A stretch of 64,000 nucleotides of DNA from Escherichia phage vB_EcoS_ESCO40. The translations under genes and the position numbers were made by a program. Shown here piece after piece: positions 17,590 through 29,734 of the stretch. Where the stretch lies: sequence record NC_106514.1; one strand, given 5' to 3'. Position 1 is the stretch's first letter. Each line of letters begins with the position of its first letter. A model generated the notes under the pieces. That model was not told the DNA's origin, made no database searches, and saw nothing but the letters and a program-made list of their open reading frames with translations.

Positions 17590-17775
17590 TAGATCTCCTG
17601 TTTGGTAGTTAGTAGTGGGTTTGAACCACTGTAGTCGCTCCGTATGAAGGAGGTGCATAACCACTCTGCCAACTAACTATTATGTTTTACTAGGCTAAGT
17701 AAGTATTCTTTGTACTCTTTAGACCAACTAGCTTTTTTAAACTTTCCTGGACGCATAGTCTTAATTCCTAGATTT

Positions 17776-17852
17776 GGTACTCCGGGAGGGATTTAAACCC
17801 CCGATCTCTCGGTTATCAGCCGAGTGCTTTAGATCGCTAAGCTACCGAAGCA
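17776..17852 (-). tRNA. tRNA-Ile (anticodon GAU)
   Basis: Cloverleaf by eye: anticodon stem CTCGG/CCGAG, loop CTGATAA, T-loop TTTAAAT, CCA encoded. Confidence 0.75.
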
Positions 17853-17866
17853 TTAAAATAATTACA

Positions 17867-18157
17867 TCACACACTGTCTAAGTAAGAAGTATAATGGAAT
17901 TTAGCTTCTCCAGTCTTATCTACTTCTACCTCAGTTCGTGGTACTTGACGAACTACACCATGAATCATCTTATAGCGAATACCTTTAGCTGGTTCATGAT
18001 CTTTTGGAAATACTTGTTTAACCGTTACTACTTTATACCCCTCTCGCGGTGTTAATACAACTATTTGATCACCTTCTTTGATTTTCCAAGAAGATGGAAA
18101 TTCATAGGTGTATCTTTGGCCACCAGTTTGGAATACTACAGAAAGATAACGCTTCAT
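17867..18157 (-). CDS. hypothetical protein (96 aa)
   Basis: ORF behind promoter. Confidence 0.5.
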   Translation of the reverse strand: MKRYLSVVFQTGGQRYTYEFPSSWKIKEGDQIVVLTPREGYKVVTVKQVFPKDHEPAKGIRYKMIHGVVRQVPRTEVEVDKTGEAKFHYTSYLDSV

Positions 18158-18187
18158 TTGGTTTCCCTCTCATTAATTTATATAAAT

Positions 18188-18216
18188 ATTATAGCAAGAA
18201 ATAAGAGAGAAAGCAA
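18188..18216 (-). promoter_or_regulatory. sigma70-type early promoter (T5 family)
   Basis: TTGCTT-17-TATAAT. Confidence 0.6.
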
Positions 18217-18231
18217 ATGAATTTTTAAGTT

Positions 18232-18306
18232 TGGTGCTCCCACTAGGAATCGAACCCAGCTCAGATGCTTACAAGGCAACTGCATCGCCAACAATGCTTT
18301 AGGAGC
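18232..18306 (-). tRNA. tRNA-Thr (anticodon UGU)
   Basis: Loop CTTGTAA, T-arm CTGGG-TTCGATT-CCTAG, CCA encoded; one mismatch in anticodon stem. Confidence 0.6.
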
Positions 18307-18473
18307 GATAATCCCATTATTTCAACGGGATTTCTTTTTCAAATACAGGGGATTTATCTGACATTACTGTCATTGCCAACTGCTGAAGAAACTCGAAAGT
18401 TAGCTTTAAGCGTTCTTCGCCTAATTCAACCTCAACGTATTTCTTTTGTTTGTCAACCTTTAATTTTAGGTTA

Positions 18474-18695
18474 TCAGCCATCTTCGGATTCTCGTTGCTC
18501 GGCTAATGCTAGCCAGTCTGGTAAAAGAAACTTAGTACGAAATTCTTCATACGTTTCTTCTGGATAAAAGCTAAAACCTCCTTTCTCATCATTCAAGATA
18601 ACAGAGCCGTCAGTTTGTTCGTATGCTCGATATGTTTCTCCAATAATGATAACTCGCTTATCAGTACTTTTATTACGAAACTCAAAAACGTGCAT
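18474..18695 (-). CDS. hypothetical protein (73 aa)
   Basis: ORF between tRNA genes. Confidence 0.45.
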   Translation of the reverse strand: MHVFEFRNKSTDKRVIIIGETYRAYEQTDGSVILNDEKGGFSFYPEETYEEFRTKFLLPDWLALAEQRESEDG

Positions 18696-18711
18696 AGTGT
18701 TTCCTTAAAGT

Positions 18712-18787
18712 TGGAGCGGCTAGAGGGAATCGAACCCTACTCAGCGAGGCTTGGAAGGCCTGCGACACAACCCGTGTGCTTAACCGC
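18712..18787 (-). tRNA. tRNA-Gly (anticodon UCC)
   Basis: Loop CTTCCAA; T-loop TTCGATT; CCA encoded. Confidence 0.55.
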
Positions 18788-18794
18788 GATTATT

Positions 18795-18870
18795 TGGCTG
18801 GAGAAGGAGGAATCGAACCTACCATTAACGGAGTCAAAGGCCGTTGTGCTAACCGTTACACTACTCTCCA
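18795..18870 (-). tRNA. tRNA-Gln (anticodon UUG)
   Basis: U1:A72 and G73 as in bacterial tRNA-Gln; loop CTTTGAC. Confidence 0.65.
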
Positions 18871-18876
18871 AGTATT

Positions 18877-18952
18877 TGGCTGGGATGCCACGGATCGAAC
18901 GTGGAACCTTCGGAGGCAGAGGCCGACGATCTGCCAATTGATCTACATCCCA
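18877..18952 (-). tRNA. tRNA-Gln-like (anticodon CUG), atypical position 37
   Basis: U1/G73, loop CTCTGCC with C at position 37; perfect T-arm CCACG-TTCGATC-CGTGG. Confidence 0.45.
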
Positions 18953-18965
18953 ATAATTCTTTACT

Positions 18966-19160
18966 CTATGGAAATAGAGTAACTGGCTCAGGTTCTTCAA
19001 GGCGCTTACCTTCATGATCTACTCGAATGACTCCGCACCCTTCGCAAACCACAACTGCACCATAACCTTCTTTGACTTCGGCTTCTGTAATCAGACCAGA
19101 TAAGTCACCAGTATCTCTACCCCACATATCAATGGAGCATTGTTTGCAGAACTCAGCCAT
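18966..19160 (-). CDS. small zinc-ribbon protein (64 aa)
   Basis: CxxC...CxxC pairs (CKQC, CEGC). Confidence 0.45.
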   Translation of the reverse strand: MAEFCKQCSIDMWGRDTGDLSGLITEAEVKEGYGAVVVCEGCGVIRVDHEGKRLEEPEPVTLFP

Positions 19161-19185
19161 ATTTTATTTCCTATTTAAGTTAATT

Positions 19186-19262
19186 TGGGGTGGCTAGTGG
19201 AATTCGAATCCACATAGGCCTGATTCACAATCAGGATCATTAACCAATTATGATATAGCCAC
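19186..19262 (-). tRNA. tRNA-His (anticodon GUG)
   Basis: Extra 5' G(-1), C73, loop TTGTGAA; ends TAGCCACCCCA. Confidence 0.8.
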
Positions 19263-19627
19263 AATTGAAAACTCGCAGGGTTAGCGAAACCATCCTCAAT
19301 TAGCATGTTCTAGAATACTAATCAAGTTATCTCCTATTGCACGCAGCTCAAGACTAGTACGAATTTTCAATTGTGGCGGCTCTCAGAAACTCTTCTATTC
19401 TAGCCTCAGAAGCTTACCCCCGAACGCATGTCGGGAAAGTCTTTCCAAGAGCATCAAATAGCACCGTTACACTTTGAGCCATTGATGTATCAAGGAATAG
19501 AAGGACTTGAACCTTCATGAGTTAGACCATTTAACTTAACCGCTTTTAAGGTATATTTCTAGGAGTGGATGTTCCTAGTAAACCTATTCGGCAGTCCCGT
19601 CTACCAATTCCGGCATATTCCAAGATT

Positions 19628-19722
19628 TGGAGGTAGGTAAGGGGATCGAACCCTTACACCGTATCACTACGATCAACCGATTTCAAGTCGGAGTCCAGCG
19701 CCAGCCGTTGGATTGACCTACC
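19628..19722 (-). tRNA. class II tRNA, probable tRNA-Ser (anticodon UGA)
   Basis: Acceptor GGTAGGT/ACCTACC, loop CTTGAAA, long variable arm, T-arm AAGGG-TTCGATC-CCCTT; unusually long at 95 nt. Confidence 0.5.
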
Positions 19723-20233
19723 CTATAAACTCTTCATATACTGCAAATTCCCCGAATAACTCACGTCTAAGATTATTAGCTTTATTTACAGCTTTATCTA
19801 GTTCAGTAAAAAGTCCACCATAATGGAGCTTGCCATCTTTACGTACTTCTATTTTCCACTTATTTCTTTGCTTATGCCAAGTTACATTTTTATACCCAGA
19901 GGTATTATCTACCCTTAATTTAGCATTAGCTTGATTCTGTGATACAGTGGCTATTCGTAAGTTATCCCATTTAGTATTGGACTTATCTTGATCCTTGTGG
20001 TCAATTAGATCTGGTATTTTTCCAGTCATGTATAAGAATGCTAGACGATGTGCTAACCAGCTAGTATTTCCTAGAGTTATCTTCCAATAGCCTAGTTCAT
20101 TAATAAATCCCGCTCTAGTTCCAGCATATTTACTATTCCATTGACTATCTAAATCAGATCTATATTTCCAGAAAAACTCTCCAGTATCTGGTTTATATAA
20201 CAACACGGATTTTAATTCTTGTTGTGTTAGCAT
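19718..20233 (-). CDS. HNH homing endonuclease with AP2-like domain (freestanding, inside tRNA array)
   Basis: HNH motif DLIDHKDQDKSNTKWDNLR; track start 20395 would run through a tRNA gene, so start placed at ATG 20233. Confidence 0.7.
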   Translation of the reverse strand: MLTQQELKSVLLYKPDTGEFFWKYRSDLDSQWNSKYAGTRAGFINELGYWKITLGNTSWLAHRLAFLYMTGKIPDLIDHKDQDKSNTKWDNLRIATVSQNQANAKLRVDNTSGYKNVTWHKQRNKWKIEVRKDGKLHYGGLFTELDKAVNKANNLRRELFGEFAVYEEFIG

Positions 20234-20248
20234 ATATACTCCAATATT

Positions 20249-20342
20249 TGGCGGAAAAGATGGGAGTTGAACCCATAAGGCAATATTGCTATTACTCAAC
20301 CGATTTCCAATCGGGTTTAGTCGCCAGTCTATTTGCTTTTCC
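20249..20342 (-). tRNA. class II tRNA-Ser (anticodon GGA)
   Basis: Acceptor GGAAAAG/CTTTTCC, loop TTGGAAA, long variable arm, G73, CCA. Confidence 0.6.
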
Positions 20343-20348
20343 GTAAAA

Positions 20349-20435
20349 TGGTAGGGATGGAGGGACTCGAACCCACACGTATGTTTCAACACCAAGTTCT
20401 AAGCCTGGCGCGGCTACCAATTTCGCCACATCCCC
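20349..20435 (-). tRNA. tRNA-Leu (anticodon UAG)
   Basis: 87 nt, loop CTTAGAA, long variable arm, A73. Confidence 0.7.
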
Positions 20436-20443
20436 ATTTTGTT

Positions 20444-20517
20444 TGGTGGAGAAAGAGGGAGTTGAACCCTCGTCTTCTGCGTGCAAAGCAGATGTTCTAC
20501 CATTAAACTATATCCCC
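20444..20517 (-). tRNA. tRNA-Ala (anticodon UGC)
   Basis: G3:U70 wobble, A73, stem TCTGC/GCAGA, loop TTTGCAC. Confidence 0.75.
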
Positions 20518-20755
20518 AAATTCTTTAGTTTACTAAGGCTATTAGCTCGGCGTAACTACAGCACCTTCGCTTCGAGCGGAAGGAACCGCGTCATCTCGCA
20601 AACCCGATACACTATTCAGTTGCCGCTGAATCTAGTGGACTAATCTAGAACCTCTCCCAAATAGTAGGGATCGTGCTTTTTGGCAGCCAGTCCTAGGTCG
20701 AGCTAATACCTTAGTGAACTATGATGAGGATTTCTCCTCATCAATTTATATAAAT

Positions 20756-20784
20756 ATTATAACAAGAAATTAAGCATCAAGCAA
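20756..20784 (-). promoter_or_regulatory. sigma70-type promoter driving tRNA operon
   Basis: TTGCTT-17-TATAAT; no ORF downstream, only leader and tRNAs. Confidence 0.6.
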
Positions 20785-20802
20785 ATGAGTTTTTCTTGAA
20801 AT

Positions 20803-20878
20803 TGGTAGCGGGTTCCAGTACTGCCCTGGACTTACTTAGCTTATGAGACTAAGAAGAACTCTATGCCTCCCACCCGCA
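20803..20878 (-). tRNA. degenerate tRNA-like element (CAU anticodon loop, non-canonical T-loop)
   Basis: 76 nt with CCA, loop CTCATAA, 1:72 mismatch, T-loop GGCAGTA lacks TTC, weak D-stem. Confidence 0.3.
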
Positions 20879-20884
20879 ATTGTT

Positions 20885-20960
20885 TGGTCAGTGCGGCAGG
20901 ACTCGAACCTGCGACCCGAATCATCCAAGGATCCCACGCTACCAACTGCGCTACGCACTG
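20885..20960 (-). tRNA. tRNA-Pro (anticodon UGG)
   Basis: C1:G72 as in bacterial tRNA-Pro, loop CTTGGAT, T-arm GCAGG-TTCGAGT-CCTGC. Confidence 0.75.
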
Positions 20961-20991
20961 TTTGTTTTTGTTAACTCACTTTATAAGATAT

Positions 20992-21020
20992 ATTATACAG
21001 AGAATTAAGCTAAATAGCAA
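20992..21020 (-). promoter_or_regulatory. sigma70-type promoter driving tRNA operon
   Basis: TTGCTA-17-TATAAT. Confidence 0.6.
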
Positions 21021-21168
21021 ATGAATTTTTAATAAATTTACTTATTGTGTAGGCCACCTGGAGGCTATGAACCCACGGCTGACAAAGAAATTTGCGAGAC
21101 TTCTCTTAAAAGCCAGAATAGATCCGCCGATCTATCGGAACCTACATAATAAGTAAACTTTATAGTGT

Positions 21169-21289
21169 CATTCTAGACAGGACTCGAACCTGCTATCACT
21201 TGTGCGGACTTACGAGAACCATTCTTTCACTCGAATCGAACGAGCTTCTGCCCTCGCCAAGCTGGTTTCCCCATCAACCACGCTAGAAT
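21169..21289 (-). ncRNA. atypical tRNA-like RNA (121 nt, two T-arm-like hairpins)
   Basis: Perfect 7-bp acceptor pairing ATTCTAG/CTAGAAT enclosing CTCG-TTCGATT-CGAG and GCAGG-TTCGAGT-CCTGT hairpins; does not fold as a standard cloverleaf. Confidence 0.3.
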
Positions 21290-21411
21290 GTTTGATTGTT
21301 TTCAGTGCAAGAGTCCGAGTCTTGGACACGACCGCTTCGCAAGTACATAGGCAGCTTATCATGAGTCAGCACTTCCGAATTGCTAGCTCCGTGTTCTGCA
21401 CTGAAATTTTA

Positions 21412-21759
21412 TTAGTTTAACCGTAAAGTATTATCTACTTCACCATTAATTGTTCGGCATTCCTCTGGGATTGCCGGGGTGGCCTTGTATTCCCACCACT
21501 CAGCACCATCATATTCCCCACGTTCTAGCCAAGTTCCGTCGGCAAACCATACATTACCATAAAGTAATTGTCCACCATATCCAGAATCATATTCAAAGTC
21601 TAGGTTATTAAGAAAATCCTCAATGTCTTCTTCTGTATAACCTAAAGGTAATACCCAAACTTTTTTATCCCCATAATACCCGAATTCTATTTTAATACAC
21701 TTAACTTCAGAATTAGTATTTTTTAAGGCGAGTAACAGCTCTTCTTTAGCATTACGCAT
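21412..21759 (-). CDS. hypothetical acidic protein (115 aa)
   Basis: ORF. Confidence 0.5.
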   Translation of the reverse strand: MRNAKEELLLALKNTNSEVKCIKIEFGYYGDKKVWVLPLGYTEEDIEDFLNNLDFEYDSGYGGQLLYGNVWFADGTWLERGEYDGAEWWEYKATPAIPEECRTINGEVDNTLRLN

Positions 21760-21784
21760 AGTATATTCTCATACTGAATTAATT

Positions 21785-21861
21785 TGGCGCGACCGATGGG
21801 ATTTGAACCCACATTCCCTCCCGTGACAGGGGAGTACCATTACCAAGCCAGCCCCGGTCGC
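21785..21861 (-). tRNA. tRNA-Asp (anticodon GUC)
   Basis: Acceptor GCGACCG/CGGTCGC, loop CTGTCAC, G73, CCA. Confidence 0.8.
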
Positions 21862-21870
21862 ATAATTTAT

Positions 21871-22056
21871 TTACTCAGCTTTGAGTTTTTCAATAGCTGC
21901 ATTAAGTTCTTTAAGAAACTCTTTTCGTACATTAAGACGATTGAGACTTACTAGTATATCATGTTTAAGTTCTTCGATGTATTTCTTCTCAACTTCAATA
22001 TTGTTGATAGTGCTATCACGATGAACTTCTAGCTGCGCAATCACATTCTTGGACAT
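21871..22056 (-). CDS. small coiled-coil protein (61 aa)
   Basis: ORF. Confidence 0.4.
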   Translation of the reverse strand: MSKNVIAQLEVHRDSTINNIEVEKKYIEELKHDILVSLNRLNVRKEFLKELNAAIEKLKAE

Positions 22057-22157
22057 GCTTGTTTCCTCAGTTATTAACGAAAATGGTATCTGTGGCTGAA
22101 TTCGATGTCAGCAATGATAGCTGGTTGGCTACCGGTTTACTTAACTCTACACAGAAT

Positions 22158-22240
22158 TTGGCGGGCCGTGTAGGATTCGAACCTACGTTGTCTTTCGACA
22201 TGGATTAACAGTCCACCGCCAAACCGCTTGGCTAACGACC
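22158..22240 (-). tRNA. tRNA with Asn anticodon (GUU) and a 13-nt variable arm
   Basis: Loop CTGTTAA, perfect T-arm GTAGG-TTCGAAT-CCTAC, variable region GTCGAAAGACAAC forming a GAAA-capped mini-hairpin; 83 nt. Confidence 0.5.
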
Positions 22241-22393
22241 CTAAATTTATATTGCTGACTAGGATTTTCACCTAGACGGAGTTAGCACCGTAGCGTGTAG
22301 CGGCATACCTCTCCAAACCGTGCCTCATCTTTCAATTACGGAGACAGTGTTCCTACGCGTGCCTGAATTGATTTAACAATTCTTTCAGCAAAT

Positions 22394-22469
22394 TGGACGA
22401 CCGCATGAGATTTGAACTCACATAAAAAGGATTTGCAATCCTTCGCCTAAGCCATTCAGCCAACGGTCG
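22394..22469 (-). tRNA. tRNA-Cys (anticodon GCA)
   Basis: Stem AAGGA/TCCTT, loop TTGCAAA, T-loop TTCAAAT. Confidence 0.7.
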
Positions 22470-22647
22470 GTTTATCTTGTTTTTCGAGATCTTCAAATTC
22501 TAAATCGTTGAAGTTCCCTAGAGTACGTGTATAGAACCCGTCTCCTGAGTCATAGCCTGATTTACCGCAATCGCACATTTTAAATTCGCGCAGATGTGTG
22601 AAAATATGTTCAGAACCACAACACTTAAATCTAACTAATCGTTTCAT
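22456..22647 (-). CDS. small zinc-ribbon protein (63 aa)
   Basis: CC...C..C pattern; ORF behind promoter. Confidence 0.45.
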   Translation of the reverse strand: MKRLVRFKCCGSEHIFTHLREFKMCDCGKSGYDSGDGFYTRTLGNFNDLEFEDLEKQDKPTVG

Positions 22648-22675
22648 TAGCTTCTCCAGTTCAATTTATGTAATT

Positions 22676-22704
22676 ATTATATAGAACTTTTGGAAACTAA
22701 GCAA
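22676..22704 (-). promoter_or_regulatory. sigma70-type early promoter (T5 family)
   Basis: TTGCTT-17-TATAAT. Confidence 0.6.
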
Positions 22705-22974
22705 CTACATTTTTAAGAATTTGATGCCTTTCTTTTTCTTCTTATATTTCCACGTTAATGGATTTTGTCGATTATGAACGCTTGAGATCTTTGTCTCGTC
22801 AAAGTTCTTCAATATCATGTAATCACAGGATAATTGTTCTAGTGGAATGTGATCACCGTCAAAAGCGTATACATAAGGCCGTTGACTAGCACGATAATGA
22901 TAGACTTTGTTAATTCTACGTTTCAGCGACTTATCCGCGCAGTAAATAAAGAAGTTTTCAGGATGCATCAGCAT
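22705..22974 (-). CDS. hypothetical protein (89 aa)
   Basis: RBS TAGGAGA before ATG. Confidence 0.45.
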   Translation of the reverse strand: MLMHPENFFIYCADKSLKRRINKVYHYRASQRPYVYAFDGDHIPLEQLSCDYMILKNFDETKISSVHNRQNPLTWKYKKKKKGIKFLKM

Positions 22975-22986
22975 CTCCTAAGTAAT

Positions 22987-23063
22987 TGGCGTCCTGTGCG
23001 GGGATCGAACCCGCAAACCCTACCTTGAAAGGGTAGTGACTTTACCAGTTTGTCTAACAGGAC
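22987..23063 (-). tRNA. tRNA-Glu (anticodon UUC)
   Basis: Acceptor GTCCTGT/ACAGGAC, stem CTACC/GGTAG, loop CTTTCAA, G73. Confidence 0.75.
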
Positions 23064-23069
23064 TTAAAT

Positions 23070-23157
23070 TGGTAGGGGAGGATGGAGTCGAACCACCCGA
23101 GTCGCAATGACAACTAATTTACAGTCAGCTCTGCTACCACTTACAGAATACTCCCCC
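23070..23157 (-). tRNA. tRNA-Tyr (anticodon GUA), class II
   Basis: 88 nt, loop CTGTAAA, long variable arm. Confidence 0.65.
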
Positions 23158-23282
23158 ATATTTGAATGAAAAGTAAGTCGGTTAAACTCAAGGTGGAATA
23201 TTTCAGGATTTCCTGACTTTACCCCTCAAAGCAACTCGCTTAGTTACTTCTCATTCAGATATGTTTTCCAAACTAGATAACT

Positions 23283-23311
23283 ATTATATCAAGTTTTAAG
23301 GCACTGAGCAA
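23283..23311 (-). promoter_or_regulatory. sigma70-type promoter driving tRNA operon
   Basis: TTGCTC-17-TATAAT; the -35 sits in the arm of the 23301-23340 hairpin. Confidence 0.55.
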
Positions 23312-23340
23312 GTCAAATTTTGAAGAACTTGCTCAGTGCT
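23301..23340 (-). terminator. 12-bp perfect hairpin (terminator-like) overlapping promoter -35
   Basis: gcactgagcaag ... cttgctcagtgc directly after the stop of the 23348-23623 gene. Confidence 0.45.
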
Positions 23341-23347
23341 GTATTAG

Positions 23348-23623
23348 TTAGTCGAACTTAGGAGTGACAGTTAAGGAGAACGGAAGTTCAAAAACTTCTT
23401 CACCCTCATTACTAACAGTAACTACACGACCTTTAAGTTCAGACATTGAAATATCAATATCAGCTTTTGCATCTGGAGCCATGCCAGCTTCAACACATTT
23501 AGCTTTAACTTCCGGAAGGAGTTCTACATCGTAGAAATAAAGCCATTCAATCTCACCTTCCCAGCCTTCCCAGGATTTACAGATTGCACTTTCAATACCA
23601 GTTGCTATAACTCGATTTTGCAT
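23348..23623 (-). CDS. hypothetical protein (91 aa)
   Basis: ORF, RBS AAGGAG. Confidence 0.5.
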   Translation of the reverse strand: MQNRVIATGIESAICKSWEGWEGEIEWLYFYDVELLPEVKAKCVEAGMAPDAKADIDISMSELKGRVVTVSNEGEEVFELPFSLTVTPKFD

Positions 23624-23653
23624 TCGTTAACTCCTTCATCAATTTATATAACT

Positions 23654-23683
23654 ATTATATCAGAAATTTAAAGTAAAAGGCAA
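23654..23683 (-). promoter_or_regulatory. sigma70-type early promoter (T5 family)
   Basis: TTGCCT-18-TATAAT. Confidence 0.5.
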
Positions 23684-23713
23684 GTACATTTTTAAAAATT
23701 CTGTTCGGAGGAG

Positions 23714-23920
23714 CTAAACTCCAGATTCTTCGGCCAAGTCTAGACTAATAAGAGTTATAGCCATAATTGCCGCACCATGTTCTTTTTCTCCGCTGTTTTT
23801 AGCAGAGTCTATAATATCCTTAATCTGTTCGTAATAACTTTTTACTTCTTGTTCAATGCCTGCCTCGGCTATCATGCCTTTAGTCATGAATCGTTGCATG
23901 GTAATTTCAGGATTAGCCAT
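23714..23920 (-). CDS. hypothetical protein (68 aa)
   Basis: ORF; start overlaps the stop of an unlisted upstream small ORF. Confidence 0.4.
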   Translation of the reverse strand: MANPEITMQRFMTKGMIAEAGIEQEVKSYYEQIKDIIDSAKNSGEKEHGAAIMAITLISLDLAEESGV

Positions 23921-24080
23921 GTTGTTTCTCCAGTTTCATTTTTAATAGTTTACAAATGAAATCAACGTCTTCATCTGTGCCTAAGTCTCTATCCTCAAGG
24001 GTTGCCTTGAAGTTTTTCGTCAATTCCATAAGGATAACTTCCTTAGAACGACGTGTTGGAGGCGGAGGAGGTCTATACAT
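23913..24080 (-). CDS. unlisted small ORF (55 aa, Pro-rich N-terminus MYRPPPPPTRR)
   Basis: Translated by hand; RBS AAGGAA before ATG at 24080; below the 60-aa cutoff of the track. Confidence 0.35.
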   Translation of the reverse strand: MYRPPPPPTRRSKEVILMELTKNFKATLEDRDLGTDEDVDFICKLLKMKLEKQHG

Positions 24081-24095
24081 CTTAATTCCTTAATT

Positions 24096-24172
24096 TGGTA
24101 GGGGTGGTGGGATTCGAACCCACAAAACCTGAATTTTAAGTCCAGTACCTATGCCAATTCGATTACACCCCC
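24096..24172 (-). tRNA. tRNA with Leu anticodon (UAA), class I architecture
   Basis: 77 nt, loop CTTAAAA, perfect T-arm GTGGG-TTCGAAT-CCCAC, A73, short 5-nt variable loop. Confidence 0.5.
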
Positions 24173-24273
24173 ATGTAATCAGTTTATTAGTTGATACATA
24201 TTATAGCCTAGAGAAAACCCTACTATTAATCCTACGAACCAACCAATATAATAATCTTTTAGTTTCACTGGTA

Positions 24274-24459
24274 TCAACCTCGTTCAATATCTAGAGAAAT
24301 ACCACAGGTAGGATTAATGCCTGTGCCTTTGCATGTAGGGCAAACCCAGATATTGCAAAAAGTATCCCCTGCTTCTGCATCAGAACTTTCTCCAATCCCA
24401 CGACATTCAGGACAGGCACATTCTTCTAGCTCTTGCTTGAGTTCTTGAAACTTAGACAT
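24274..24459 (-). CDS. small zinc-finger protein (61 aa)
   Basis: CxxC...CxxC (CPEC, CPTC). Confidence 0.45.
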   Translation of the reverse strand: MSKFQELKQELEECACPECRGIGESSDAEAGDTFCNIWVCPTCKGTGINPTCGISLDIERG

Positions 24460-24468
24460 ATAGTTTCC

Positions 24469-24657
24469 TTATTCAATTACTTTTGAAGCTTCAAGGGAGT
24501 CGATATAGTGTACGTTTTCTACCATAATCATATAATCTGCCACTTTATCCATAGCCTGAGCTTCAGAGGTAGCCCTGGCTAACCTATATCCTTTTTTATA
24601 CTCATCCGGGTATTCCCTATCTGGAATAAACACAACACAAACTAGGTATAGTTCCAC
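24469..24657 (-). CDS. hypothetical protein (62 aa, GTG start)
   Basis: RBS GAGGGG before GTG. Confidence 0.4.
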   Translation of the reverse strand: MELYLVCVVFIPDREYPDEYKKGYRLARATSEAQAMDKVADYMIMVENVHYIDSLEASKVIE

Positions 24658-24678
24658 CTGTAACCCCTCTAATTAAGC

Positions 24679-24756
24679 TGGTGGCTCCCCGAGGATTCGA
24701 ACCTACGTACCTTCCGGTTATGAGCCGGGTGCTCATACCATATGAGCTTGAGAACC
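24679..24756 (-). tRNA. tRNA with CAU anticodon (elongator Met or Ile2)
   Basis: Loop CTCATAA, acceptor GGTTCTC/GGGAGCC with two G-U pairs, A73; T-stem weak (3 bp). Confidence 0.45.
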
Positions 24757-24762
24757 AGAATT

Positions 24763-24851
24763 TGGCGGAAGAAGTGGGAATCGAACCCACAAGGCTATAT
24801 TTCAAACCGACAGATTAGCAATCTGCTGCAATACCGTTATGCTATTCTTCC
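24763..24851 (-). tRNA. class II tRNA-Ser (anticodon GCU)
   Basis: Acceptor GGAAGAA/TTCTTCC, stem CAGA/TCTG, loop TTGCTAA, long variable arm, G73. Confidence 0.7.
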
Positions 24852-24865
24852 GAATTTATAAATAT

Positions 24866-24894
24866 ATTATATTAGAAATTTAGCTTCATAGCAA
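24866..24894 (-). promoter_or_regulatory. sigma70-type promoter driving tRNA operon
   Basis: TTGCTA-17-TATAAT; tRNA-Ser begins about 8 nt after predicted start site. Confidence 0.6.
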
Positions 24895-25390
24895 GAAAAT
24901 TTTTCAAGTTTTCGGTAGACATCTCATCCACATCTACAGGAGAAACAAATCCATTTAATTGTCTAGCAAATTTTTCACCAGCAGGATCATTATCCCCAAC
25001 AGCTACCAATTTAAAAGGTAGTAATTTCAATTGCTTTAACAACGCTTTCCCGGGGGAAGAACCCAACATTGCTAGGGCAGGATAACCAGCGTTATGTAAC
25101 GCAACTGCCTTAAATACAGATTCAGCAATCAATACTACTTTTTCATCTCCATTGAGAGTTTCTAGTCCCCATACACACTGTGTAGTAGAATAAGTAAAAT
25201 ATCTAGCTTCAAGGGGGCACTTACCATGACCTTTTGGAGCAGAAGGATTATAAGTCTGATAGCCTCTCAACATCCCAGAGAAGTCATACAATGGGACTGT
25301 TAGCCATCCTTCCGGACTTAACCAGCAATGATATTTATCTGTATCAAACCCTCTAGATAAGAGATGTTCTGTTAGTTCATCAACAGTCAT
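24872..25390 (-). CDS. Toprim-domain protein (about 172 aa)
   Basis: C-terminal VLIAE...VGDNDPAGEK resembles the Toprim E...DxD signature; track start 25441 lies in the promoter -35. Confidence 0.5.
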   Translation of the reverse strand: MTVDELTEHLLSRGFDTDKYHCWLSPEGWLTVPLYDFSGMLRGYQTYNPSAPKGHGKCPLEARYFTYSTTQCVWGLETLNGDEKVVLIAESVFKAVALHNAGYPALAMLGSSPGKALLKQLKLLPFKLVAVGDNDPAGEKFARQLNGFVSPVDVDEMSTENLKNFLAMKLNF

Positions 25391-28381: not shown

Positions 28382-28456
28382 TGGCCGAGGTGACAGGATT
28401 CGAACCTGCATAAAGGAATTTAGAAGACTCCTGCCTCTCCCTTAGACTACACCCCG
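28382..28456 (-). tRNA. tRNA-Arg (anticodon UCU)
   Basis: Loop CTTCTAA, T-arm GCAGG-TTCGAAT-CCTGT, G73, CCA. Confidence 0.7.
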
Positions 28457-29253
28457 TTTAAGTATTTTTAAGAACTCTCGTAAAAACTCTTAAAAATACA
28501 GACGATACCGGGAGAGTCATAAGTCTCACTCATTAAGTATTTCAAGACAAAATACAGTAACGTCTATTATTTTCCAGTTTAAGTCAGGGTGACTTAGTGG
28601 TTATGTCCTGCGGTATATTGAGGACTCGGTTAGGCTTGGGGTCATGACTTCCCGCCTTTTGCTGCTACTCAACAGGAGTTATCGCGAATTACCTGTGCTA
28701 TTGTGCACCATTAGTGACATCTCTCATGTCAGCATTTCCCACTTTGTGGATAGCTTGAAAAACTACTCCGATATGGAGAAAGAACTTCACTATCCTAGAA
28801 TACCTTCTAAAGTTCTTCTTTAGCCTGGACATAGTTAAATCGTAATAAAACTATTCAGCAGACTGGTTGGTTAGTCTGGAACCAACTACCACGTGGTTTA
28901 GGCAGTGCGCAACTAACCTCGGAAGCTTTTACGTTAAAAGCATCAGTTATCCAGTTCTTACCGACCGTAGGATTCGAACCTACATCTTCCACCAGTTACG
29001 GCTTGATAATACCAATTATACTAGGACGGCGGTGTTACTACATAAGTGATTTCCACACCCCACTATTTATAAATTAGAGAAGAGTTTAGGGGAGAGGTTT
29101 CAGACGCCTCATTTTACACGTTCTAGCCACTAACCGGGATTGCCGCCCCCTGTGTACTAGTTTTACAACTAACCCACCGACTCTATTCAATGCGCTCCGG
29201 TTGGGATTCTGCACTCAGCGTAATCGGCTCGCTGTTCCCTAATTTATGAATAT
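28457..29253 (-). other. promoter-driven ORF-free region (candidate structured RNA(s) or degenerate tRNAs)
   Basis: About 0.8 kb without an ORF of 60 aa or more, downstream of promoter 29254-29282 and upstream of tRNA-Arg. Confidence 0.4.
28955..29030 (-). ncRNA. tRNA-like element with perfect T-arm but imperfect acceptor
   Basis: GTAGG-TTCGAAT-CCTAC T-arm; acceptor pairing needs a bulge; anticodon not assignable. Confidence 0.25.
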
Positions 29254-29282
29254 ATTATACAGAATTTATAAGCATTTAGCAA
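29254..29282 (-). promoter_or_regulatory. sigma70-type promoter (T5 family)
   Basis: TTGCTA-17-TATAAT. Confidence 0.6.
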
Positions 29283-29290
29283 ATAAATTT

Positions 29291-29734
29291 TTAATTAAAT
29301 TCGCCAGCAATCTGAGCAGCAGTACCACCATCATAACGCCCAGGAAATTCTTCCTTAATCGCTTTCATCAGCATACCTTTTGTAATTCCAGGGTTTAGCT
29401 TAACTAATTCTGCAAAGTATTTACGAATCTCAGTATCAGATAACTGAGGAGGCAGATACTCCTGCAACCACTTATTTAGAATGTATTCATACTGAGCGGA
29501 CTGCAAGCTATAACTATCAAGATCTTGACCATGAAGTTTAGCTTTCATCTGGTTAATGCTTTTTAGTTGAGCTTTGAGATAAGACACAAATTGTTCAGAA
29601 GTGATGAAATCTTTATCAATACGCTGAAGATCCCCGATTATGGTCTGATAGCTTTTAGCGACTTCTTTATCAGAACCATTAAACTTAGAATCCTGCAAAG
29701 CTCTACGCAAAACATCTAAAATATTCTCTTCCAT
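29291..29734 (-). CDS. GatB/YqeY-domain protein
   Basis: Segment EYLPPQLSDTEIRKYF...GMLMKAIKEEFPGRYDGG resembles the YqeY family as I recall it. Confidence 0.55.
   Translation of the reverse strand: MEENILDVLRRALQDSKFNGSDKEVAKSYQTIIGDLQRIDKDFITSEQFVSYLKAQLKSINQMKAKLHGQDLDSYSLQSAQYEYILNKWLQEYLPPQLSDTEIRKYFAELVKLNPGITKGMLMKAIKEEFPGRYDGGTAAQIAGEFN

What the first reader, a model, noticed from the sequence alone, without database searches (positions are those of the whole stretch)
28457..29253. Promoter-driven 0.8-kb ORF-free stretch upstream of tRNA-Arg
A canonical T5-type promoter (29254-29282) fires into about 800 nt with no ORF of 60 aa or more on either strand, ending at tRNA-Arg. The stretch contains one perfect T-arm (GTAGG-TTCGAAT-CCTAC near 28965) whose acceptor does not pair cleanly, several long-range hairpins, and no recognisable coding signal. 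It could hold degenerate tRNAs, a large structured RNA, or processing signals for the tRNA precursor.
Basis: seen in the sequence. Interest (0 to 1): 0.6.

Follow-up and report, generated by a model that had tools for sequence, protein, structure and literature searches.

The report
Large structured phage RNA "RNAX"
The 0.8-kb gene-free stretch is RNAX, a long non-coding RNA of T5-like phages that databases list only as "stable RNA with unknown functions"; comparison across phage genera shows it is an elaborately folded RNA with a tRNA-shaped module and self-complementary loops that suggest copies of it bind each other, as in the recently solved GOLLD/ROOL RNA cages.

Summary
A T5-type promoter (TTGCTA-17-TATAAT, 29282-29254, minus strand) fires into about 790 nt with no ORF over 60 aa, ending at tRNA-Arg(UCU). 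The stretch matches the feature annotated in T5, BF23 and DT57C as rnaX, "stable RNA with unknown functions", so its existence is known.

New here:
- **Range.** Homologues of 0.64-1.3 kb occur across Tequintavirus, Epseptimavirus, an Enterobacter phage and Klebsiella Sugarlandvirus. Conserved blocks keep the same order and are better conserved than the neighbouring endolysin gene.
- **Structure.** Helices covary: 26 of 66 pairs in the 3' domain and 10 of 26 in the tRNA-like module show compensatory changes, beating 500 of 500 shuffles.
- **tRNA-like module.** The acceptor, D and T arms are kept, but there is no anticodon loop.
- **Self-complementary loops.** One apical loop holds a hexamer that changes between lineages yet stays palindromic (UCGCGA, CGCGCG, CUCGAG, CCGCGG, UGCGCA). 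A second loop has an invariant GUCAUGAC. Palindromic covariation is the signature used to support symmetric kissing loops in OLE and GOLLD.
- **Shared motif.** A 21-nt motif also occurs verbatim in unrelated phages and in tombus-like and sobemo-like RNA viruses. This is unexplained.

Rfam finds no GOLLD or ROOL homology. Best reading: a new class of large, probably self-associating phage RNA.

The parts
29254..29282 (-). Early sigma-70-type promoter (T5/BF23 'P16-17'): -35 TTGCTA at 29282-29277, -10 TATAAT at 29259-29254.
   Evidence: Consensus scan gives 10 of 12 matches. The same sequence is annotated as promoter P16-17 in BF23 and T5. It is conserved in all lineages.
28457..29247 (-). RNAX transcript body. 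The 5' end is inferred at about 29247 from the spacing after the -10 hexamer. The 5' end annotated in GenBank for BF23 and T5 maps to 29240. The 3' end abuts the tRNA-Arg 5' end.
   Evidence: 97.7% identical to BF23 rnaX. Annotated as misc_RNA 'stable RNA with unknown functions'. Coordinates.
29071..29245 (-). 5' domain, closed by helix P1 (5' strand 29245-29235 AAAUUAGGGAA, 3' strand 29081-29071 UUCUCUAAUUU). It contains hairpin CAGCG-AGCCGAUUA-CGCUG (29234-29216) and covarying helices. It is dispensable.
   Evidence: T5 and DT57C delete the whole interior, leaving only a P1 hairpin. rokbiter and L020 replace it with an HNH endonuclease ORF. Covariation is visible by eye, for example AGUGC/GCAUU against AACAC/GUGUU against AUUCAA/UUGAGU.
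29031..29065 (-). Near-invariant block UAGUGGGGUGUGGAAAUCACUUAUGUAGUAACACC, forming two short stacked helices just 5' of the tRNA-like module.
   Evidence: Found only in T5-like phages in the IMG/VR collection of viral contigs. The hairpin pair 12-18 switches between G-C and C-G.
28959..29030 (-). tRNA-like module. Acceptor, D and T arms and a UUCGAAU T-loop are present. The 'anticodon' arm is a 3-bp stem with a 6-nt loop (GUAACU).
   Evidence: Rfam tRNA model 35.5 bits against a gathering score of 29. ARAGORN does not call it here and assigns inconsistent anticodons elsewhere. Cloverleaf covariation: 10 of 26 pairs compensatory, 0 of 500 shuffles as high. Lineage variants listed.
28744..28958 (-). 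Central, more variable region. It includes GGAUAACUG, the covarying hairpin GCUUUUA-ACG-UAAAAGC (28941-28925), and a hairpin at 28919-28900 whose loop carries UGCGCA.
   Evidence: Alignments. The loop varies as UGCGCA, UACGUA, GCGCGC and GUGCAC, but two lineages are non-palindromic, so this site is weak evidence.
28672..28696 (-). Hairpin K1: ACAGG-UAAUUCGCGAUAACU-CCUGU. The apical loop carries the palindrome UCGCGA (28687-28682).
   Evidence: 46 of 47 distinct sequences have a 6-nt palindrome at this site, in five versions: UCGCGA, CCGCGG, CUCGAG, CGCGCG, UGCGCA. Each hexamer occurs once per representative RNA checked, and palindromes are not enriched overall. The closing helix covaries.
28632..28657 (-). 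Hairpin K2: AGGC-GGG-AAGUCAUGA-CCC-(C)AA-GCCU. The loop carries the invariant self-complementary GUCAUGAC.
   Evidence: Invariant in all 32 aligned sequences. The stem covaries: AGGC/GCCU, AGGU/ACCU, AGACU/AGUCU, GUGAC/GUCAC.
28605..28625 (-). Covarying hairpin GUCCU-CAAUAUACCGC-AGGAC, followed by the invariant AUAACCAC (28604-28597).
   Evidence: Helix 6: 100% of cells paired, 3 of 5 pairs with compensatory changes. Single-sequence folds agree.
28574..28594 (-). 21-nt motif AGUCACCCUGACUUAAACUGG: hairpin AGUCA-CCC-UGACU plus a single-stranded tail.
   Evidence: Invariant in the RNAX family. Single copy in the window. Exact copies occur in unrelated phage and (+)RNA-virus contigs.
28500..28565 (-). 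Three-way junction: outer helix AGACG.UACUG/CGGUA.CGUCU, inner hairpins GUAUUU/AAAUAC and GAGU/ACUC, and an invariant junction string CUUAA.
   Evidence: Independent single-sequence folds recover the outer helix in nearly all lineages and the two-hairpin junction in most, despite different sequences. Compensatory pairs in helices 8-10.
28462..28499 (-). Terminal 17-bp A/U-rich hairpin at the 3' end of RNAX.
   Evidence: 98% of cells paired, 5 pairs with compensatory changes. It ends RNAX whether a tRNA or an ORF follows.
28382..28456 (-). tRNA-Arg(UCU), co-transcribed. Its 5' maturation by RNase P would create the RNAX 3' end (inferred).
   Evidence: ARAGORN and Rfam, 49.3 bits.

Best explanation
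The stretch encodes RNAX, a roughly 790-nt non-coding RNA. It is made early in infection from promoter P16-17 as one transcript with tRNA-Arg.

Shown here:
- It is a conserved, multi-domain structured RNA found across Demerecviridae.
- It has a dispensable 5' domain closed by a long-range helix, an embedded tRNA mimic, and a conserved 3' core.
- The 3' core holds two apical loops with self-complementary sequences, a 21-nt invariant hairpin motif, a three-way junction and a terminal hairpin.

Inferred:
- RNase P cleavage at the tRNA-Arg 5' end releases RNAX.
- The two self-complementary loops form symmetric kissing contacts between RNAX copies. RNAX would then work as a homo-oligomeric RNA-only assembly, the same principle as the phage RNAs GOLLD and ROOL, which also sit by tRNA islands.
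- The tRNA-shaped module is displayed or enclosed as a handle for tRNA-recognising factors.
- The biological role is most likely in managing the phage's tRNA and translation programme, or in absorbing host factors that target tRNAs.
For: - Identity with annotated rnaX.
- Promoter.
- Conserved blocks in the same order in Tequintavirus, Epseptimavirus, Enterobacter phage KKP_3711 and Klebsiella Sugarlandvirus. The blocks are more conserved than the adjacent endolysin gene.
- Covariation on sequence-only alignments, 3' domain: 84.8% of cells paired against 35-50% in slid controls. 26 of 66 pairs are compensatory against 15.5 +/- 1.9 in shuffles, 0 of 500 as high.
- Covariation, tRNA-like region: 86.5% against 31-49%, and 10 of 26 against 4.7 +/- 1.3, 0 of 500 as high.
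- Most lineages fold independently into the same three-way junction, and nearly all keep its outer helix.
- Precise domain deletion or replacement at helix P1.
- Palindromic covariation in loop K1: five different hexamers, 46 of 47 sequences, one copy per representative RNA checked. Loop K2 is invariant and self-complementary.
- Kretsch et al. 2025 (PMC12286853) use exactly this palindromic covariation as support for symmetric intermolecular kissing loops seen in the cryo-EM structures of OLE and GOLLD. They describe GOLLD as phage-encoded, near tRNA islands, with a conserved 3' region, a variable 5' region and sometimes a tRNA in the linker.
- No ORF over 74 aa in any lineage.
Against: - Oligomerisation is inferred from sequence only. 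K2 never varies, so it gives no covariation. K2 is also complementary to the stem strands of the 21-nt motif, so it could pair within the molecule instead.
- One sequence (L051) has only a 4-nt palindrome in K1.
- Single-sequence folding energy is not unusual (z = -1.2).
- No Rfam homology to GOLLD or ROOL.
- I found no published expression or end-mapping data. 'Stable RNA' rests on the GenBank note alone.
- The function is not addressed by any data here.
- T5 and DT57C lack the 5' domain and some phages lack the tRNA-like module, so neither can be essential to the core activity.
Confidence: 0.6

Rival explanations
1. RNAX is a structured but monomeric non-coding RNA. It acts as a decoy or sponge, for example for host anticodon nucleases, tRNA-modifying or processing enzymes, or ribosomes. 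The palindromic loops would serve something other than self-association, such as binding a dimeric protein or pairing within the molecule with the 21-nt motif.
For: The tRNA mimic keeps the elbow and acceptor but not the anticodon. Loop K2 (AGUCAUGA) is complementary to the motif strand UGACU in all 32 sequences. A YqeY-like protein is encoded just upstream; YqeY-like domains are tRNA-binding, which I state from general knowledge.
Against: K1 changes sequence yet remains palindromic, and each representative RNA checked has only one copy. A protein site would be expected to keep its sequence, and an intramolecular partner would have to be a second copy, which is absent. The tRNA-like module is replaced by a plain hairpin in GSW6, L023 and L067.
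Confidence: 0.2
2. The stretch is mainly a long 5' leader of the tRNA-Arg precursor. Its structures guide or time processing by RNase P and RNase E, and the 'stable RNA' is a by-product.
For: It is directly adjacent to tRNA-Arg in the window, T5, BF23 and DT57C. The terminal hairpin abuts the tRNA 5' end.
Against: In many Epseptimavirus phages, KKP_3711 and Klebsiella phages, RNAX is separated from tRNA-Arg by one or two ORFs yet keeps all conserved blocks and its terminal hairpin. About 20 conserved helices and invariant loops are far more than a leader needs.
Confidence: 0.12
3. The stretch is non-functional spacer: decayed tRNA genes and scars of homing-endonuclease traffic in the tRNA island.
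For: The region is a hotspot for insertions, including an HNH ORF, unknown ORFs and hairpin inserts. One tRNA-like element is present.
Against: Blocks are more conserved than the neighbouring coding DNA. Compensatory changes are significant. Only one block resembles a tRNA.
Confidence: 0.04
4. The conserved blocks act at the DNA level, for example as palindromic protein-binding sites or signals for replication, nicking or recombination, rather than as RNA.
For: K1 and K2 are DNA palindromes. T5 DNA carries specific nicks nearby. The 21-nt motif is duplicated around an insert in T5 and L092.
Against: G.U pairs and strand-specific covariation occur throughout. The 21-nt motif also occurs in the sense strand of RNA-virus genomes, which have no DNA stage. 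The feature is promoter-driven and annotated as a stable RNA.
Confidence: 0.04

Closest known systems
rnaX / RNAX of phages T5, BF23 and DT57C (GenBank misc_RNA, 'stable RNA with unknown functions')
   Same: Same locus, same promoter (P16-17), same downstream tRNA-Arg. 97.7% identical to BF23 rnaX. This is that gene.
   Different: The database entry gives only coordinates and 'unknown functions'. The window's version (about 790 nt, like BF23's 784 nt) has the roughly 150-nt 5' domain that T5 (719 nt) and DT57C (636 nt) lack. It also lacks T5's 87-nt insertion with the duplicated motif.
[quoted passage not shown]
   Same: Phage-encoded, beside a tRNA island, about 800 nt. Conserved 3' region with a variable 5' region, and a tRNA(-like) element between them. 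Symmetric loops with palindromic covariation (PMC12286853, compared).
   Different: No match to the Rfam GOLLD model, even at E <= 10 on the isolated region. The conserved sequences differ and the host range differs (Enterobacterales phages). Oligomerisation of RNAX is untested.
ROOL RNA (Rumen-Originating, Ornate, Large)
   Same: A phage or prophage RNA near tRNA islands. Large, multi-helix, no known protein partner, assembles through kissing loops (PMC12286853).
   Different: No Rfam ROOL match. In ROOL the 5' and 3' parts are intertwined, whereas the RNAX 5' domain is separable.
OLE RNA symmetric kissing loop L9.3, and the HIV-1 dimerisation initiation site (the latter from my own knowledge)
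   Same: An apical loop with a palindrome that switches between different self-complementary sequences in different lineages (OLE: GGCC, GAUC, AGCU). In several lineages K1 has A residues flanking a 6-nt palindrome, as in the HIV-1 loop.
   Different: Unrelated molecules. The resemblance concerns mechanism only.
Bacterial and phage Y-RNA-like YrlA (tRNA-mimicking module). That YrlA carries a tRNA mimic is from my own knowledge.
   Same: It contains a tRNA mimic with T and D arms and an acceptor-like stem but no decoding anticodon loop.
   Different: No YrlA model match in RNAX. RNAX is about seven times longer.
s2m-type mobile RNA elements of RNA viruses (from my own knowledge), as an analogue for the 21-nt motif
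   Same: A short, almost invariant RNA module found in untranslated or intergenic regions of unrelated viruses.
   Different: The sequence is different. This motif also occurs in dsDNA phages.

Membership tests
T5-group rnaX (annotated stable RNA) | Lies between promoter P16-17 and tRNA-Arg(UCU), downstream of the T5.081 homologue. | tested here: met
T5-group rnaX (annotated stable RNA) | Sequence homology to annotated rnaX. | tested here: met
   97.7% identity over 835 aligned positions to the BF23 region. 91-98% to T5 over the shared parts.
T5-group rnaX (annotated stable RNA) | Accumulates as a stable transcript during infection. | not testable with these tools
   Only the GenBank note is available. 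No paper was found in the library.
GOLLD RNA | Match to the Rfam GOLLD covariance model. | tested here: not met
   No hit at E <= 1 on 4 kb, at E <= 10 on 921 nt, or at E <= 0.1 on 11 homologous loci.
GOLLD RNA | Phage or prophage location next to a tRNA island. | tested here: met
   18 tRNAs in the window. RNAX abuts tRNA-Arg.
GOLLD RNA | Conserved 3' region, variable 5' region, and a variable linker that may hold a tRNA. | tested here: met
   Analogous layout only. Description of GOLLD.
GOLLD RNA | Homo-oligomeric assembly through symmetric kissing loops. | tested here: inconclusive
   Palindromic covariation in K1 and an invariant palindrome in K2.
ROOL RNA | Match to the Rfam ROOL covariance model. 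| tested here: not met
tRNA (internal element 28959-29030) | Scores above the Rfam tRNA gathering threshold. | tested here: met
   35.5 bits against 29. 29-38 bits in homologues.
tRNA (internal element 28959-29030) | Cloverleaf arms maintained by compensatory changes. | tested here: met
   acceptor, D, T and 'anticodon' stems all show changes on both sides.
tRNA (internal element 28959-29030) | 7-nt anticodon loop with a conserved anticodon. | tested here: not met
   The loop is 6 nt (GUAACU) here, 5 nt (GCGAA) in phiR2-01, and an extended arm in Klebsiella phages. ARAGORN calls it act, tca or cga, or makes no call.
YrlA / Y-RNA-like | Match to the Rfam YrlA model. | tested here: not met
GIR1 lariat-capping ribozyme / group I-derived | Match to the Rfam GIR1 or group I intron models. 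| tested here: not met
   None in RNAX at E <= 10. Sub-threshold GIR1 hits occur only in RNA-virus contigs that share the 21-nt motif.
Class 3 plant-virus exoribonuclease-resistant RNA (considered for the 21-nt motif) | Sequence resemblance to a solved member (ST9a). | tested here: not met
   The ST9a construct sequence in PMC12397905 shows no similarity to the motif. No Rfam hit.

The most novel reading that the evidence does not exclude
RNAX is a third, independently evolved class of phage tRNA-island RNA that self-assembles into RNA-only multimers through two symmetric kissing loops. It sits in the genetically tractable T5 / E. coli system. It also carries a 21-nt hairpin module (AGUCACCYUGACUWWAACUGG) that is shared verbatim with unrelated phages and with tombus-like and sobemo-like RNA viruses. 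That module would be a self-contained RNA element engaging some universally conserved cellular target.
Probability: 0.3. Interest if true: 0.9.

Novelty: new variant of a known kind. Interest (0 to 1): 0.72.

Why it matters
GOLLD and ROOL showed that phages encode giant RNAs next to their tRNA genes that build protein-free cages, but nobody knows what these are for. One reason is that their hosts and phages are hard to manipulate.

RNAX has the same genomic setting and layout, and it shows the sequence signature of symmetric RNA-RNA contacts. It lives in phage T5 and its relatives, classic E. coli and Salmonella phages with a long history as laboratory models. If RNAX self-assembles, the function of this kind of RNA becomes directly testable with phage deletions, loop-swap mutants, cryo-EM and host defence panels.

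Separately, a 21-nt RNA motif shared word for word by dsDNA phages and two orders of RNA viruses is hard to explain by descent. It points to an unrecognised portable RNA element.

Tried and rejected
- **Rfam 15.** Searched the window at three stringencies and 36 related or motif-bearing loci. Within RNAX, only tRNA hits appeared. There was no GOLLD, ROOL, OLE, YrlA, group I, GIR1, RNase P, tmRNA or riboswitch match.
- **Single-sequence thermodynamics.** z = -1.2 on the sense strand and -1.8 on the antisense strand, so uninformative.
- **RNAalifold on the MAFFT alignment.** It recovered only invariant helices because variable helices are misaligned. I replaced it with anchor-delimited blocks and hand-defined helices, then tested those with shuffles and slid controls.
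- **Degenerate-tRNA array.** Rejected: there is only one tRNA-like block.
- **Small-protein coding.** Rejected: no ORF over 74 aa and none conserved in position.
- **The UAGUGGGGUG block as a portable module.** It is restricted to T5-like phages.
- **Relaxing the motif to 17 nt.** This mostly returned chance matches inside coding regions, so only the 21-nt results are used.
- **The motif as a plant-virus exoribonuclease-resistant RNA.** Rejected on sequence.
- **The motif as part of the GIR1-like fold through a downstream UGACU.** That UGACU is present only in the L040 lineage.
- **Third palindromic loop (28900-28919).** Suggestive only, because two lineages break it.
- **Literature.** Searches for RNAX, T5 stable RNAs, T5 transcriptomes and the literal motif found nothing relevant.
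- **My own errors.** A mistake paired loop K2 with the motif; I corrected it and kept the complementarity as an observation. An earlier count gave wrong motif coordinates; the correct ones are 28574-28594.
Full report

The window is a T5-like phage, 99.8% identical to Salmonella phage VSe12 over the region. All features below are on the minus strand.
- A sigma-70-type promoter, TTGCTA-17-TATAAT, lies at 29282-29254.
- tRNA-Arg(UCU) lies at 28456-28382.
- The 797 nt between them contain only short ORFs. The longest are a 60-aa TTG-start ORF and a 59-aa ORF, both antisense, and a 45-aa sense ORF.
It passes the Rfam tRNA threshold (35.5 bits against 29), but ARAGORN does not call it.

The one small correction is that a single antisense ORF reaches exactly 60 aa.

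**The feature is already annotated**

The BF23 tRNA-region record, the T5 RefSeq genome and DT57C all annotate this interval as misc_RNA rnaX, 'RNAX, stable RNA with unknown functions'. The annotated lengths are 784, 719 and 636 nt. In each case it is driven by promoter 'P16-17' and ends at tRNA-Arg. T5 lists seven further small 'stable RNAs' in the tRNA island, and RNAX is by far the largest. I found no paper in the searchable library that describes RNAX, its structure or its function. The existence of the RNA is thus known. What it is has not been worked out.

**Distribution and modular conservation**

Homologous ORF-poor stretches of 0.64-1.3 kb occupy the same position. They lie downstream of the endolysin and/or the YqeY-like T5.081 gene, and upstream of tRNA-Arg. 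I found them in Tequintavirus, Epseptimavirus (rokbiter, GSW6, Seafire, SB13, phiR2-01), Enterobacter phage KKP_3711 and Klebsiella Sugarlandvirus phages.

Conserved blocks occur in a fixed order, separated by variable inserts. Against Klebsiella phage FZ41 the RNAX blocks are 80-90% identical, while the neighbouring endolysin gene is 68.7% identical. No lineage has an ORF over 74 aa in the region. In many Epseptimavirus phages, KKP_3711 and the Klebsiella phages, one or two ORFs lie between RNAX and tRNA-Arg. RNAX nevertheless keeps all its blocks and ends with the same hairpin. It is therefore not merely a tRNA leader.

**Evidence for structure**

Single-sequence folding is unremarkable (z = -1.2). 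The comparative evidence is strong. I extracted 47 distinct RNAX sequences and defined helices between invariant anchors.

For the 3' domain I used a plain MAFFT alignment of 32 sequences, not fitted to any structure, and an 11-helix, 66-pair model:
- 84.8% of cells are paired, against 35-50% when partners are slid by 1-3 columns.
- 26 pairs have changes on both sides, against 15.5 +/- 1.9 in 500 shuffles. None of the 500 reached the observed value.

The block after the 21-nt motif folds independently into the same three-way junction in most Tequintavirus, Epseptimavirus and Klebsiella sequences, with quite different sequences. The outer helix is recovered in nearly all lineages, and the invariant junction string CUUAA is always present.

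The terminal 17-bp hairpin has five compensatory pairs.

At the 5' end, AAAUUAGRGA pairs with UCUCUAAUUU about 170 nt downstream (helix P1). T5 and DT57C have deleted exactly the enclosed domain, leaving a P1 hairpin. rokbiter and L020 have replaced it with an HNH homing-endonuclease gene. Clean excision at a helix is what one expects of a modular RNA fold.

**The tRNA-like module**

Across 16 diverse sequences the acceptor, D, T and 'anticodon' stems all show compensatory changes. 10 of 26 pairs are compensatory against 4.7 +/- 1.3 in shuffles (0 of 500 as high), and 86.5% of cells are paired against 31-49% in slid controls. The T-loop and the D-loop GG are conserved.

The anticodon loop is not conserved:
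- a 6-nt loop (GUAACU) in most phages;
- a 5-nt GCGAA loop in phiR2-01;
- an extended arm capped by a tetraloop in Klebsiella phages;
- the whole cloverleaf replaced by an unrelated hairpin on the same basal stem in GSW6, L023 and L067.

ARAGORN accordingly calls it Ser(act), SeC(tca), Ser(cga), or nothing. This is a tRNA-shaped structural module, not a decoding tRNA and not a decaying pseudogene. Relatives restore that pair as A-U or U-A.

**Self-complementary loops**

The most informative feature is hairpin K1 (28696-28672). Its stem covaries, and its apical loop carries a 6-nt palindrome that differs between lineages:

| Hexamer | Distinct sequences | Lineages |
|---|---|---|
| UCGCGA | 32 | Tequintavirus and most Epseptimavirus |
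| CCGCGG | 9 (10 counting SB13, where the second hexamer lies in another hairpin) | KKP_3711 and Klebsiella phages |
| CUCGAG | 3 | 26175V, SB13, L023 |
| CGCGCG | 1 | T5 |
| UGCGCA | 1 | phiR2-01 |

Only one of 47 sequences lacks a 6-nt palindrome, and it retains CGCG. In the ten representative RNAs checked, each hexamer occurs once. Palindromes are not enriched in RNAX overall: about 9 are observed against about 13 expected.

Adjacent nucleotides of a 6-nt palindrome cannot pair with each other within one loop. Conserved self-complementarity with changing sequence therefore points to pairing between two copies of the same loop. Kretsch et al. used exactly this argument to support the symmetric kissing loops seen in the OLE and GOLLD cryo-EM structures (PMC12286853).

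A second hairpin, K2 (28657-28632), has a covarying stem and an invariant loop containing GUCAUGAC, which is also self-complementary. A third loop (28919-28900) shows UGCGCA, UACGUA, GCGCGC and GUGCAC, but two lineages are not palindromic there, so I give it little weight.

**Comparison with known large phage RNAs**

GOLLD and ROOL are phage or prophage RNAs near tRNA islands that form RNA-only cages through kissing loops and A-minor contacts. GOLLD has a conserved 3' region and a variable 5' region, and sometimes carries tRNAs in the linker between them. RNAX has the same setting and layout, and it has candidate symmetric loops.

It is not a detectable homologue. Rfam 15 contains both families and gives no hit, even at E <= 10 on the isolated region or on eleven homologous loci. 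I therefore class RNAX as a new variant of this kind of RNA. It works like them at the level of inference but is not a member of either family.

**Most likely mechanism**

Shown: a promoter-driven, conserved, multi-domain structured RNA with a tRNA mimic and self-complementary loops.

Inferred:
- It is co-transcribed with tRNA-Arg, and its 3' end is released by RNase P.
- It self-associates through K1 and K2 into dimers or higher oligomers.
- Its role is tied to the phage tRNA and translation programme, or to titrating tRNA-recognising host factors.

I put about 0.9 on 'functional structured RNA', about 0.5 on 'homo-oligomer', and 0.6 on the explanation as a whole.

Rivals:
- A monomeric decoy RNA (0.2).
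- A processing leader only (0.12).
- Junk spacer (0.04).
- DNA-level signals (0.04).

K2 is complementary to the stem strands of the 21-nt motif in all sequences. An intramolecular alternative for K2 therefore cannot be excluded.

**An unexplained by-product: the 21-nt motif**

The RNAX block AGUCACCYUGACUWWAACUGG (window 28594-28574, single copy) folds as AGUCA-CCY-UGACU plus a tail. Exact copies occur outside the T5-like phages in three kinds of place:
- 12 IMG/VR contigs and about 19 of the 29 metagenome stretches, several of which are the same contigs again.
- One of 32 million bacterial or archaeal genome contigs.

The flanks of these copies are unrelated to RNAX and to each other.

The carriers are of two kinds. 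Some are unrelated DNA-phage contigs, where the motif lies between genes on the sense strand. Others are small (+)RNA-virus genomes of two different orders: L040 has RdRP_4, Peptidase_S39 and a coat protein, and L045 has RdRP_3 and a coat protein. In the RNA viruses the motif is on the sense strand. In several contigs it starts 8-25 nt after a stop codon, either between the RdRp and coat-protein ORFs or in the 3' UTR near the contig end.

In three to four of these RNA-virus lineages the motif is followed by a sub-threshold but recognisable GIR1 (lariat-capping ribozyme) fold. Its CAUCC..AUACAUG segment abuts the coat-protein start codon. No paper in the library mentions lariat capping together with RdRp.

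Relaxing the motif to 17 nt gives mostly chance hits. The 21-mer would be expected well under once by chance. This is my own estimate, scaled from the yield of the 17-nt pattern and not measured on the collections.

T5 and L092 carry the motif twice, flanking a 66-nt hairpin insert.

I could not identify the motif. It is not in Rfam, it is not a class 3 exoribonuclease-resistant RNA, and the literal sequence is not in the literature.

**Verdict**

The finding is real and more than chance. Its bare existence is already in GenBank. Its nature as a conserved, ornate, probably self-associating RNA with a tRNA mimic, in a model phage, appears not to have been described, and it is directly testable.

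Noticed in passing
window 28574-28594 (-); L038, L040, L042, L045, L049, L050, L060, L061, L063, L072/L099, L080, L084, L088, L091, L093, L098, L100, L103, L107, L108: The 21-nt RNAX motif AGUCACCYUGACUWWAACUGG occurs verbatim in unrelated DNA-phage contigs and in tombus-like and sobemo-like (+)RNA-virus contigs. It is always on the sense strand, in intergenic or 3'-UTR positions, and in several cases 8-25 nt after a stop codon. The flanks are unrelated. Only one hit appears in 596 Gb of bacterial and archaeal genomes.
   Followed up: partly
L040:2920-3096, L045:2675-2839, L050:544-709 (-); also L063: Sub-threshold GIR1 (lariat-capping ribozyme) matches of 35-44 bits (E = 6e-7 to 2e-4) lie in the RdRp-CP intergenic region of RNA-virus contigs. 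The conserved core strings are present, and the CAUCC..AUACA segment lies directly at the coat-protein AUG. This may be ribozyme-generated, lariat-capped subgenomic mRNA. No paper with 'lariat-capping' and 'RdRp' was found.
   Followed up: partly
L003/L066 (phage T5) and L092, within rnaX: T5 and one metagenomic T5-like phage carry the 21-nt motif twice, flanking a 66-nt perfect-stem hairpin insert. It looks like an insertion with duplication of the motif.
   Followed up: no
L027:717-1199 (rokbiter) and L020: An HNH_3 homing-endonuclease ORF has replaced the RNAX 5' domain directly behind the promoter. T5 and DT57C have instead deleted that domain cleanly.
   Followed up: partly
L027:1787-2296, L029:2168-2677, L026:1992-2501, L031:2252-2728; L035:2660-3165: A 158-169-aa ORF with no Pfam hit (Epseptimavirus, KKP_3711), or two small ORFs (Klebsiella phages), sits between the RNAX terminal hairpin and tRNA-Arg, with a ribosome-binding site right after the hairpin.
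   Followed up: no
window 29291-29734 (-): The gene just upstream of the RNAX promoter is variously annotated as 'tRNA amidotransferase' or 'recombination related exonuclease'. It matches only the YqeY-like domain, just below threshold (25.4 bits against 27). It is a possible tRNA-binding protein next to an RNA with a tRNA mimic, and it is absent from this position in Klebsiella phages.
   Followed up: no
window about 17600-24900 (-); T5 record NC_005859 28038-37258 (L142): T5 annotates seven further 'stable RNAs' (RNAIII, RNAI, RNA1, RNA2H, RNAIV, RNA2, RNA3; 73-172 nt, some tRNA-like) between tRNA genes. The window's tRNA island has similar gaps, for example 19263-20248 and 21000-21784, which I did not examine.
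   Followed up: no
window 22159-22241 (-): ARAGORN predicts an 83-nt tRNA-Asn, longer than usual. In T5 this position holds a 78-nt tRNA-Asn directly preceded by 'RNA3, putative tRNA-like RNA'.
   Followed up: no
L072:14170-14241 (-) / L099:4876-4947 (-); L108:266-491 (-): Two motif-bearing DNA-phage contigs also hold weak Rfam matches about 3 kb from the motif: a Y-RNA-like YrlA match (37 bits) and a group I intron match (34 bits).
   Followed up: no
window 28632-28657 and 28574-28594 (-): The invariant K2 loop AGUCAUGA is complementary to both stem strands of the 21-nt motif hairpin (AGUCA/UGACU) about 45 nt downstream. This could be an alternative pairing or a switch.
   Followed up: partly
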